From Escherichia coli (lineage in GTDB: Bacteria; Pseudomonadota; Gammaproteobacteria; Enterobacterales; Enterobacteriaceae), in the NCBI RefSeq assembly GCF_045037415.1, contig NZ_CP173438.1: a DNA stretch of 64,000 bases; one strand, given 5' to 3'. Below are positions 1,300 to 1,388 of the stretch, in pieces. Each line of letters begins with the position of its first letter. The first letter of the stretch is position 1. A model generated the notes under the pieces. It did not search any database. It saw only the letters and a program-made list of their open reading frames with translations, and had not been told where the DNA came from. A program made the position numbers and the translations under genes.

Positions 1300-1318
1300 T
1301 ATTTTACCGGTAACATGA
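1300..1318. promoter_or_regulatory. palindrome TTACCGGTAA resembling a GntR-type operator in the zwf-edd intergenic region
   Basis: perfect 10-bp palindrome seen in sequence; edd is GntR-regulated in E. coli (recalled). Confidence 0.4.
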
Positions 1319-1354
1319 TCTTGCACAGATTGTAGAACAATTTTTACACTTTCA

Positions 1355-1388
1355 GGCCTCGTGCGGATTCACCCACGAGGCTTTTTTT
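1355..1388 (+). terminator. GC-rich hairpin followed by T7 run (zwf terminator or edd leader attenuator)
   Basis: stem GCCTCGTG/CACGAGGC followed by TTTTTTT. Confidence 0.5.

What the first reader, a model, noticed from the sequence alone, without database searches (positions are those of the whole stretch)
1300..1388. Operator-like palindrome followed by a terminator-like hairpin between zwf and edd
A perfect TTACCGGTAA palindrome (GntR-like) sits 28 nt after the zwf stop, followed 40 nt later by a GC hairpin plus T7 run, all upstream of edd. The order (operator then hairpin) leaves open whether the hairpin terminates zwf only or also attenuates edd leader transcription.
Basis: partly seen in the sequence, partly recalled or inferred. 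Interest (0 to 1): 0.2.

Follow-up and report, generated by a model that had tools for sequence, protein, structure and literature searches.

The report
GntR operator, zwf terminator, edd promoter
The palindrome is a docking site for the gluconate repressor GntR, and the hairpin is the ordinary stop signal of the upstream gene zwf, whose tip also carries part of the edd promoter, so this is a neat but essentially known E. coli control region and not a new kind of switch.

Summary
Both features exist at the stated coordinates and neither is a chance match. The window is E. coli zwf-edd-eda.

**The palindrome.** ATTTTACCGGTAACAT (1301-1316, "O1") is a LacI-family GntR box. It is invariant in 61 Enterobacteriaceae species.

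**The hairpin.** The hairpin (1354-1383, -18.9 kcal/mol) plus T7 (1382-1388) is the zwf intrinsic terminator. Its stem covaries. In one species that gained another terminator just after zwf, the stem has decayed.

**The edd promoter.** The hairpin tip (TTCACC, 1368-1373) and TACACT (1391-1396) never change. They fit a sigma-70 promoter with a 17-bp spacer. edd transcription should therefore start near 1403, downstream of the hairpin. The edd mRNA would not contain the hairpin, so attenuation is very unlikely. No mapped start site could be retrieved, so this step is inferred.

**A second box.** TGTTACGCGTAACA (1524-1537, "O2") lies in edd codons 5-9. It is fixed at synonymous sites in the same 61 species and absent from 20 outgroups. 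O1 and O2 sit at about -94 and +127. I propose, by inference only, a gal/gntT-like GntR repression loop of 222 bp.

**Verdict.** This is the known GntR-controlled edd P1 region. Interest is low. The loop and the shared terminator/promoter are modest refinements.

The parts
8..1276 (+). 3' part of zwf (glucose-6-phosphate dehydrogenase); stop codon TAA at 1274-1276
   Evidence: ORF list. Annotation under 100%-identical E. coli genomes. K-12 annotation.
1301..1316 (.). O1: GntR (LacI-family) operator ATTTTACCGGTAACAT, with core TTACCGGTAA at 1304-1313. Its centre, 1308.5, is about -94.5 from the inferred edd start.
   Evidence: One mismatch to TGTTACNNGTAACA; only two sites with <=1 mismatch occur in 64 kb against 0.17 expected. 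The same box type sits upstream of K-12 gntT and gntK. TTTACCGGTAACAT is invariant in 61 species.
1315..1321 (.). Invariant ATGATCT flank of O1, containing a GATC site; function unexplained
   Evidence: 100% conserved columns 15-21 of alignment A4. No second GntR box fits here (manual comparison).
1354..1383 (+). zwf intrinsic-terminator hairpin. The 5' arm is 1356-1363 plus 1365-1366, the loop 1367-1371, the 3' arm 1372-1381; outer A-U/G-U pairs are 1354-55 with 1382-83.
   Evidence: -18.9 kcal/mol, z = -5.6. 93% of cells paired, with 41 double-change cells against 7.6 in shuffles. Median -20.6 kcal/mol across 61 species. It is the only consensus structure in the region.
1382..1388 (+). T7 tract: the U-tail of the zwf terminator and, at the same time, part of the 17-bp spacer of edd P1
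   Evidence: Sequence. Six of the seven T columns are invariant in 61 species.
1368..1373 (+). -35 hexamer TTCACC of edd promoter P1, lying in the loop and inner stem of the terminator hairpin
   Evidence: GGATTCACC is nearly invariant while the surrounding stem varies. TTCACC-17-TACACT is listed for edd-eda among RpoD-holoenzyme-bound spacers in PMC3946193. It ties for best candidate in the spacer.
1391..1396 (+). -10 hexamer TACACT of edd P1; inferred start at about 1402-1404
   Evidence: ATTACACT is invariant or nearly so in 61 species. The O1-to-(-10) spacing is fixed at +/-1 nt. The start site is inferred from hexamer geometry and was not mapped here.
1398..1411 (.). Cra (FruR)-like box ACTGAAACGTTTTT covering the inferred start site
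   Evidence: It is the only match in 64 kb to RSTGAAWCSNTHHW, a consensus recalled from Ramseier et al. 1995; 0.66 matches are expected by chance, so position rather than count is the argument. GCTGAAGCGATTTTGC is conserved in many genera and lost in Klebsiella and Enterobacter.
1523..1538 (.). O2: perfect 16-bp palindrome TTGTTACGCGTAACAA inside edd codons 5-9. Its centre, 1530.5, is about +127.5 and lies 222 bp from O1.
   Evidence: Zero mismatches to the GntR core. Leu6 is TTA in 61/61, Val8 is GTA in 61/61 and Thr9 is ACA in 59/61, while other Leu, Val and Thr codons nearby use 3-6 synonyms. The box is absent from 20 outgroup species.
1511..3322 (+). edd (phosphogluconate dehydratase), preceded by Shine-Dalgarno AGGAG at 1501-1505
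   Evidence: ORF and K-12 annotation.

Best explanation
The finding covers two separate, ordinary elements of the E. coli zwf/edd junction.

(1) The palindrome O1 (1301-1316) is a DNA operator for the LacI-family gluconate repressor GntR. Its paralogue IdnR/GntH probably recognises it too.

(2) The GC hairpin plus U7 is the Rho-independent terminator of zwf. It keeps zwf transcription out of edd-eda.

(3) The gluconate-inducible edd promoter P1 is built into the terminator DNA. Its -35 (TTCACC) is the hairpin apex. The 3' arm and the T-run make up the 17-bp spacer. The -10 (TACACT) follows directly. edd mRNA therefore starts near 1403, downstream of the hairpin, and the hairpin cannot attenuate it. 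A Cra-like box covers the start site.

(4) Inferred: O1 lies too far upstream (about -94) to block RNA polymerase directly. It most likely cooperates with a second, perfectly palindromic box O2 in edd codons 5-9 (about +127). GntR dimers on both boxes would close a 222-bp loop around the promoter. This resembles GalR at O_E/O_I and GntR at the two gntT operators. Gluconate would release GntR and open the loop.

Steps 1-3 rest on sequence, folding and comparative evidence. Step 4 is inference.
For: **Identity.** The region is 100% identical to E. coli zwf-edd and colinear with K-12.

**O1.**
- O1 and O2 are the only sites in 64 kb with <=1 mismatch to TGTTACNNGTAACA, against 0.17 expected.
- The same box type occurs twice upstream of gntT, 141 bp apart, and in tandem upstream of gntK.
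- O1 is invariant in 61 species.
- GntR repression of edd-eda is stated as established in PMC13386637.
- GntR is listed in the LacI family in PMC4797297.

**Terminator.**
- Energy is -18.9 kcal/mol, z = -5.6.
- Six pairs carry compensatory changes, with 41 double-change cells against 7.6 in shuffles and 93% of cells paired.
- U-G pairs are present, which would be C-A mismatches on the other strand.
- Sixty of 61 species have a stable hairpin.
- The exception, L028, has acquired a new -17 kcal/mol hairpin plus U7 just after zwf. Its old stem has decayed to -3.6 kcal/mol, yet it keeps GGATTCACC, T7 and ATTACACT.

**Promoter.**
- The apex, T-run and -10 are invariant, and the O1-to-(-10) distance is fixed at 116-118 nt.
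- RpoD holoenzyme binds this spacer in vitro, and TTCACC-17-TACACT is the listed promoter.
- The only Cra-consensus match in the window sits right after the -10.
- No conserved alternative RNA structure exists, and there is no Rfam hit.

**Loop.**
- O2 is fixed at synonymous sites.
- O2 co-occurs with O1 in 61 of 61 species and is absent from all 20 outgroups. Where outgroup edd has its own promoter (8 of the 20), GntR boxes, tandem in most, instead abut a -10-like hexamer.
- The O1-O2 distances cluster at 218-223 (48 species), 209-214 (12) and 232 (1), with none in between. Steps of about 10-11 bp fit helical phasing.
Against: - No mapped edd 5' end or zwf 3' end could be retrieved. The primary papers are not held.
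- The curated Term-seq list of Adams 2021 has no zwf 3' end.
- Genome-wide TSS tables grown without gluconate show only weak starts inside zwf or nothing.
- P1 hexamers match the consensus only 4/6 + 4/6, below the scan tool's threshold. In this strain two other pairs tie at 8/12.
- The promoter listed in PMC3946193 is a best-match prediction inside an RNAP-bound spacer, not a mapped start.
- For the loop, there are no binding or cooperativity data here.
- O2 codons are A/T-ending, as is common at gene starts.
- The distance clusters involve related species, and the periodicity statistic is broad (R 0.75-0.77 for periods 10-12).
- GntR probably lacks a LacI-type tetramerisation tail (from memory), so a loop may need a helper such as HU.
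Confidence: 0.72

Rival explanations
1. Attenuation. A GntR-controlled promoter lies between O1 and the hairpin, so edd leader transcripts run into the hairpin/U7 and are prematurely terminated unless some signal prevents it.
For: - In this strain TGCACA(1322)-17-TACACT(1345) scores 8/12, as well as P1. It lies 6 bp from O1 and would start at about 1357.
- A direct repeat TTTTTACACT/TTATTACACT duplicates the -10 context.
- A weak nATAAT motif at 1336-1341 recurs in many genera.
Against: - The upstream hexamers are not conserved outside Escherichia: K-12 already has TGCGCA, and Citrobacter has AACACA and TGCACT. O1 and the hairpin, in contrast, are conserved in 61 species.
- A start at 1357 lies inside the 5' arm of the stem.
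- There is no conserved antiterminator or alternative fold, no leader peptide, and no Rfam family.
- L028 lost the stem but kept the O1, P1 and O2 sequences, so the stem is not needed for the edd control elements.
Confidence: 0.06
2. No loop. O1 acts alone, as a roadblock to zwf read-through or as a weak distal site, or it is a relic. The O2 sequence is kept for coding or translation-initiation reasons, or it acts alone as an elongation roadblock at +127.
For: - LacI-family repressors can block elongating polymerase (general knowledge).
- The O2 codons TTA, GTA and ACA are A/T-ending, which is typical of gene starts.
- The periodicity statistic for O1-O2 spacing is not sharp.
Against: - A roadblock directly in front of a strong terminator would be redundant.
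- The O1-to-promoter distance is fixed to +/-1 nt over 61 species, which a mere roadblock would not require.
- O2 is a perfect palindrome matching the GntR core with 0 mismatches. It is fixed 61/61 at Leu6 and Val8, while outgroups encode the same Val and Thr with other codons.
- O1 and O2 co-occur strictly.
- gntT also carries a distal pair of boxes.
Confidence: 0.18
3. The conserved block at 1301-1321 acts as RNA in the zwf 3' UTR, for example as the seed of a 3'-UTR-derived small RNA ending at the terminator, and not as a DNA operator.
For: - The block lies in the transcribed zwf 3' UTR, 65 nt upstream of a strong terminator.
- Invariance extends 5 nt beyond the palindrome, through ATGATCT.
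Against: - The conserved core is exactly the GntR box found at gntT, gntK and O2.
- There is no Rfam family.
- No 3' or 5' ends are reported here in the datasets searched.
- The stretch between the block and the hairpin is poorly conserved.
Confidence: 0.04

Closest known systems
E. coli edd-eda promoter P1 under GntR control (Egan et al. 1992 J Bacteriol 174:4638; Murray & Conway 2005 J Bacteriol 187:991; both recalled from memory, not readable here)
   Same: It is the same locus: a gluconate-responsive promoter upstream of edd, repressed by GntR. The hexamers TTCACC-17-TACACT agree with the edd-eda entry in PMC3946193. My recollection of a start about 109 nt upstream of the ATG also fits.
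   Different: Nothing essential differs. I could not confirm whether the intragenic box O2, the loop geometry or the -35-in-terminator-loop arrangement are already described.
gntT control by two GntR operators (Peekhaus & Conway 1998 J Bacteriol 180:1777; recalled from memory)
   Same: The repressor is the same and the box type is the same. One operator lies far downstream of the start, and two boxes 141 bp apart are present in K-12.
   Different: In gntT one box is reported to overlap the -10. At edd neither box overlaps the promoter (about -94 and +127), and the distance is 222 bp.
gal operon O_E/O_I repression loop by GalR (established textbook system)
   Same: A LacI-family dimeric repressor acts through two operators that flank the promoter without overlapping it, and one operator lies inside the first structural gene.
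   Different: The gal operators are 113 bp apart and looping needs HU. For edd, looping is only inferred, the distance is twice as long, and the loop would also enclose the upstream gene's terminator.
Rho-independent terminators of E. coli
   Same: A GC-rich stem with 10 Watson-Crick pairs in two helices split by a one-nucleotide bulge, plus two weak outer pairs. A short loop and a U7 tail follow. It lies 78 nt after a stop codon, with compensatory covariation.
   Different: The loop and tail are also constrained as promoter elements of the next gene, so the apex is invariant while the stem drifts.
Leader-terminator attenuators (trp, pyrBI, his type)
   Same: A hairpin plus U-run lies upstream of a regulated gene.
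   Different: The hairpin lies upstream of the inferred start site. There is no alternative fold, no leader peptide and no ligand-binding RNA.

Membership tests
GntR (LacI-family) operator | Palindrome of the type TGTTAC-N2-GTAACA | tested here: met
   O1 has 1 mismatch and O2 has 0. They are the only two such sites in 64 kb, against 0.17 expected. Boxes of the same type occur at K-12 gntT and gntK.
GntR (LacI-family) operator | Lies in the control region of a gluconate-regulon gene and is conserved among species | tested here: met
   It sits 207 bp upstream of edd and is invariant in 61 Enterobacteriaceae. GntR repression of edd-eda is stated in PMC13386637.
GntR (LacI-family) operator | Bound by GntR protein, with release by gluconate | not testable with these tools
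   Needs EMSA, footprinting or ChIP.
Intrinsic (Rho-independent) terminator of zwf | Stable GC-rich hairpin immediately followed by a U-tract, downstream of a co-oriented gene | tested here: met
   -18.9 kcal/mol, z = -5.6, with U7 directly after the stem, 78 nt after the zwf stop.
Intrinsic (Rho-independent) terminator of zwf | Pairing maintained by compensatory changes on the transcribed strand | tested here: met
   Six pairs with double changes, 41 cells against 7.6 in shuffles, and U-G wobbles valid only on + strand RNA. Sixty of 61 species are stable, and the exception carries a replacement terminator.
Intrinsic (Rho-independent) terminator of zwf | Mapped RNA 3' end at the U-tract | tested here: inconclusive
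   There is no zwf entry in the curated Term-seq tables of PMC7815308. That list is thresholded, so absence is not decisive.
Sigma-70 promoter (edd P1) | -35 and -10 hexamers with a 16-18 bp spacer | tested here: met
   TTCACC-17-TACACT scores 4/6 + 4/6. It is weak, as expected for a regulated promoter, and falls below the scan tool's 9/12 cut-off.
Sigma-70 promoter (edd P1) | Bound by RNA polymerase holoenzyme; mapped start site | tested here: inconclusive
   The RpoD holoenzyme SELEX peak lies in the zwf-edd spacer with this hexamer pair listed. No mapped start could be retrieved.
Transcription attenuator of edd | Terminator lies between the gene's start site and its start codon | tested here: not met
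   The only conserved promoter has its -35 inside the hairpin loop, so the start is about 15 nt beyond the U-run. This is an inference from conservation, not from mapping.
Transcription attenuator of edd | Conserved alternative (antiterminator) structure, leader peptide or sensor RNA | tested here: not met
   RNAalifold finds only the terminator hairpin. There is no Rfam match at E<=1. The sequence between O1 and the hairpin is variable.
Repression by DNA looping (gal/lac/gntT type) | Two operators flanking the promoter, co-conserved | tested here: met
   O1 is at about -94.5 and O2 at about +127.5. Both are present in 61 of 61 species with this layout, and O2 is absent from 20 of 20 outgroups.
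Repression by DNA looping (gal/lac/gntT type) | Helical phasing of the operators | tested here: inconclusive
   222 bp is 21.1 turns. The distances cluster at 218-223, 209-214 and 232 with gaps between, but the species are related and the periodicity is broad.
Repression by DNA looping (gal/lac/gntT type) | Cooperative binding, with both operators needed for repression | not testable with these tools
   Needs operator mutants and binding assays.

The most novel reading that the evidence does not exclude
In Enterobacteriaceae, GntR would repress edd-eda not by sitting on the promoter. Instead it would close a phase-constrained ~222-bp loop between an operator in the zwf 3' UTR DNA and an operator written into edd codons 5-9. 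The loop would enclose a dual-use module in which the zwf terminator hairpin and the edd promoter share the same 40 bp. This layout would have replaced the promoter-overlapping GntR boxes (tandem in most cases) seen in Proteus, Rahnella, Serratia sp. Ag1, Xenorhabdus and Erwinia.
Probability: 0.5. Interest if true: 0.4.

Novelty: already known. Interest (0 to 1): 0.22.

Why it matters
For genome scanning, this is a worked example: an operator placed before a terminator does not imply attenuation. The operator can be the distal half of a pair, and the terminator can belong to the upstream gene while hosting the next promoter.

Biologically, the junction separates zwf from the gluconate-induced Entner-Doudoroff genes within about 235 bp. 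From memory, zwf is growth-rate and oxidative-stress regulated.

If the loop model holds, edd would be a second natural GntR looping system. It would also be a clear case of a transcription-factor site constraining synonymous codons. That matters to anyone recoding or re-engineering edd-eda expression, for instance in the ED-pathway engineering of PMC9648032 and PMC13386637.

Tried and rejected
**Literature.**
- Egan 1992, Murray & Conway 2005, Peekhaus & Conway 1998 (both papers) and Tsunedomi 2003 are not held.
- I searched the supplements of Adams 2021 Term-seq, Choe 2022, Conway 2014, Cappable-seq, Kim 2012, Mendoza-Vargas 2009 and the LacI-regulon paper.
- None gave a mapped edd start, a zwf 3' end or site-level GntR data. 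Kim 2012 lists only 3-6-read starts inside zwf.

**Scan tool.** The consensus scan found neither the terminator (loop over 8) nor P1 (8/12), so it was uninformative.

**Rejected readings.**
- A second GntR box 11-13 bp to the right of O1, as at gntK, was rejected: at most 7 of 16 matches by hand.
- A CRP site over ATGATCT/AACACAG was rejected at 3/5 + 3/5.
- A promoter overlapped by O1, by analogy with the outgroups, was rejected because no conserved -35 or -10 is present.
- A bidirectional terminator was rejected because there is no U-run after the hairpin on the minus strand.
- Known RNA families were ruled out.

**Second palindrome.** The second TTACCGGTAA at 14458 lies in the 3' end of an unrelated ORF and was set aside as probable chance.

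Full report
**What the window is.** Bases 1200-1560 are 100% identical to many E. coli chromosomes, where the flanking genes are annotated zwf and edd. The stretch is colinear with K-12 MG1655 without indels. K-12 coordinates follow from 1,936,115 minus the window position. zwf ends with TAA at 1274-1276 and edd starts at ATG 1511.

**Observation check.** TTACCGGTAA is at 1304-1313, beginning at the 28th nucleotide after the zwf stop. It is the core of a 16-bp near-palindrome, ATTTTACCGGTAACAT (1301-1316). The hairpin has a perfect 8-bp core stem (1356-1363 with 1374-1381), two inner G-C pairs and the loop ATTCA. Exactly seven T follow at 1382-1388. It folds at -18.9 kcal/mol against -7.0 +/- 2.1 for shuffles (z = -5.6). 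The 10-mer is expected 0.05 times per 64 kb. The consensus scan missed the hairpin only because of its loop-length rule.

**The palindrome is a GntR box.**
- Searching TGTTACNNGTAACA with up to one mismatch finds only two sites in the window, against 0.17 expected. One is O1 at 1302-1315. The other is a perfect match at 1524-1537, which I call O2.
- In K-12 the same box type occurs twice upstream of gntT, 141 bp apart, and as two overlapping boxes 13 bp apart upstream of gntK. The tandem form is the arrangement described for GntR in PMC4052901.
- GntR of E. coli is a LacI-family protein (PMC4797297). Its repression of edd-eda is treated as established (PMC13386637).

**Comparative data.** A scan of one genome per species with the Edd protein returned 80 loci. 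In 60 of them, plus the window, edd follows zwf. All of these are Enterobacteriaceae, from Escherichia and Citrobacter to Klebsiella, Enterobacter, Kosakonia, Cedecea, Buttiauxella, Mangrovibacter and Shimwellia. Four things stand out across the 61 sequences.
- TTTACCGGTAACATGATCT is invariant.
- The distance from O1 to the -10 region is fixed at 116-118 nt.
- The sequence between O1 and the hairpin is mostly free to vary.
- GGATTCACC, the T-run and ATTACACT are invariant or nearly so, while the stem arms change.

**The hairpin is a real RNA structure and terminates zwf.**
- On the 61-sequence alignment, 93% of cells form standard pairs. Six of 12 pairs show changes on both sides. There are 41 double-change cells against 7.6 +/- 2.3 in shuffles, and sliding the partner columns collapses the signal.
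- Several sequences carry U-G pairs with U in the 5' arm. These would be A-C mismatches on the opposite strand, so the + strand RNA, the zwf transcript, is the selected molecule.
- Sixty of 61 species fold to between -15.4 and -24.7 kcal/mol, with a median of -20.6.
- The single exception is informative. In Escherichia sp. ESNIH1 (L028), a new hairpin of -17 kcal/mol with U7 sits 21 nt after the zwf stop, upstream of O1. The old stem has decayed to -3.6 kcal/mol (z = 0.16). GGATTCACC, T7 and ATTACACT are untouched. The stem therefore serves zwf termination, and the apex, tail and following hexamer serve something else.

**That something else is the edd promoter.**
- TTCACC (1368-1373), a 17-bp spacer and TACACT (1391-1396) form a sigma-70-type promoter with 4/6 + 4/6 matches.
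- The same pair is listed for edd-eda in the catalogue of spacers bound in vitro by RpoD holoenzyme (PMC3946193). There it is a best-match prediction within the bound spacer, not a mapped start.
- Two other pairs tie at 8/12 in this strain, but neither is conserved beyond Escherichia.
- The inferred start is about 1402-1404, leaving a 5' UTR of about 108 nt. This agrees with my unverified recollection that the mapped P1 start of Egan et al. 1992 lies about 109 nt upstream of edd.
- The only match in the window to the Cra consensus RSTGAAWCSNTHHW (recalled from Ramseier et al. 1995) is ACTGAAACGTTTTT at 1398-1411, right over this start. It is conserved in many genera.

The edd transcript begins about 15 nt beyond the U-run and does not contain the hairpin. 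RNAalifold finds no conserved alternative fold between O1 and +15, and Rfam has no match. The hairpin is therefore the zwf terminator and not an edd attenuator.

**Why the operator sits upstream of the terminator.**
- O1 is centred about 94 bp upstream of the inferred start, too far for steric exclusion.
- O2, TTGTTACGCGTAACAA (1523-1538), is a perfect palindrome in edd codons 5-9, centred at about +127.
- In the 61 species, Leu6 is TTA in 61/61, Val8 is GTA in 61/61 and Thr9 is ACA in 59/61. Arg7 is only CGC or CGG. Other Leu, Val, Thr and Arg codons in the first 60 codons use three to six synonyms.
- The 20 outgroup loci (Serratia, Yersinia, Rahnella, Erwinia, Xenorhabdus, Proteus and others) lack the zwf linkage, lack O1 and encode this stretch differently, so they have no O2.
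- In the outgroups where edd has its own promoter (8 of the 20), GntR boxes, tandem and 14-15 bp apart in most, abut a -10-like hexamer.
- Strict co-occurrence of O1 and O2, the fixed O1-promoter distance and the gntT precedent of a distal pair point to cooperation between the two boxes. A 222-bp repression loop is the most plausible form.
- O1-O2 distances across species fall into 218-223 (48 species), 209-214 (12) and 232 (1), with nothing between. Steps of about one helical turn would fit looping. However, the species are not independent and the circular statistic is broad, so I treat this as a hint only.

**What remains unexplained.**
- The invariant ATGATCT, which contains a GATC site, immediately to the right of O1.
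- The conserved ATTTTT at 1340-1345. It could be an UP-like element for P1 or part of a weak -10.
- The conserved TTTTGCC at +5 to +11.

**Comparison with known systems.** The finding corresponds to the characterised GntR-controlled P1 region of edd-eda and the zwf terminator. The loop proposal resembles gal O_E/O_I and gntT. The shared terminator/promoter is an economical layout, not a new mechanism. I could not check whether O2 and the loop are already recorded in RegulonDB, RegPrecise or the primary papers.

**Verdict.** The operator and terminator labels are right. The attenuation option is very unlikely. Novelty is low and interest is about 0.2. The most novel reading still open is the conserved GntR loop around a dual-use terminator/promoter, at a probability of about 0.5.

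Noticed in passing
L028:2255-2392 (Escherichia sp. ESNIH1): A new terminator hairpin (-17 kcal/mol plus U7) lies 21 nt after the zwf stop. The ancestral hairpin at the edd promoter has decayed to -3.6 kcal/mol, while the -35, T-run and -10 are unchanged. This is a natural separation of the terminator and promoter functions.
   Followed up: yes
window 1315-1321: ATGATCT, which includes a GATC Dam site, is 100% conserved in 61 species just outside the GntR palindrome. No second GntR, CRP or promoter element fits convincingly.
   Followed up: partly
window 14458-14467: A second exact TTACCGGTAA (CGTTACCGGTAAAA, 2 mismatches to the GntR core) lies at the 3' end of a 481-aa minus-strand ORF (14451-15896). 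It is probably chance.
   Followed up: partly
window 1434-1466: An inverted repeat GCGTTTCAATCAT / ATGTATGAAACGC lies in the edd 5' UTR. Most of the few differences between this strain and K-12 in the spacer cluster in and around its loop (about 1442-1458).
   Followed up: no
L040, L043, L044 (Buttiauxella), upstream of locus position 2291: An insertion of roughly 130 nt lies between the zwf stop and O1. From memory it resembles an ERIC/IRU repeat. The O1-terminator-promoter module downstream is intact.
   Followed up: no
L067, L074-L076, L078-L081 (Serratia sp. Ag1, Xenorhabdus, Erwinia, Proteus, Rahnella): Where edd is not linked to zwf, perfect or near-perfect GntR boxes sit next to a -10-like hexamer 75-160 bp upstream of edd. 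In most they are tandem, 14-15 bp apart. There is no intragenic box.
   Followed up: partly
window 1341-1350 and 1387-1396: A direct repeat TTTTTACACT / TTATTACACT occurs. The upstream copy gives an Escherichia-specific promoter-like pair, TGCACA-17-TACACT, that would start inside the hairpin's 5' arm.
   Followed up: partly
window 1454-3322: The mechanical ORF list extends edd to an upstream ATG at 1454 (622 aa). The K-12 annotation, the Shine-Dalgarno AGGAG at 1501-1505 and cross-species alignment support the ATG at 1511.
   Followed up: yes
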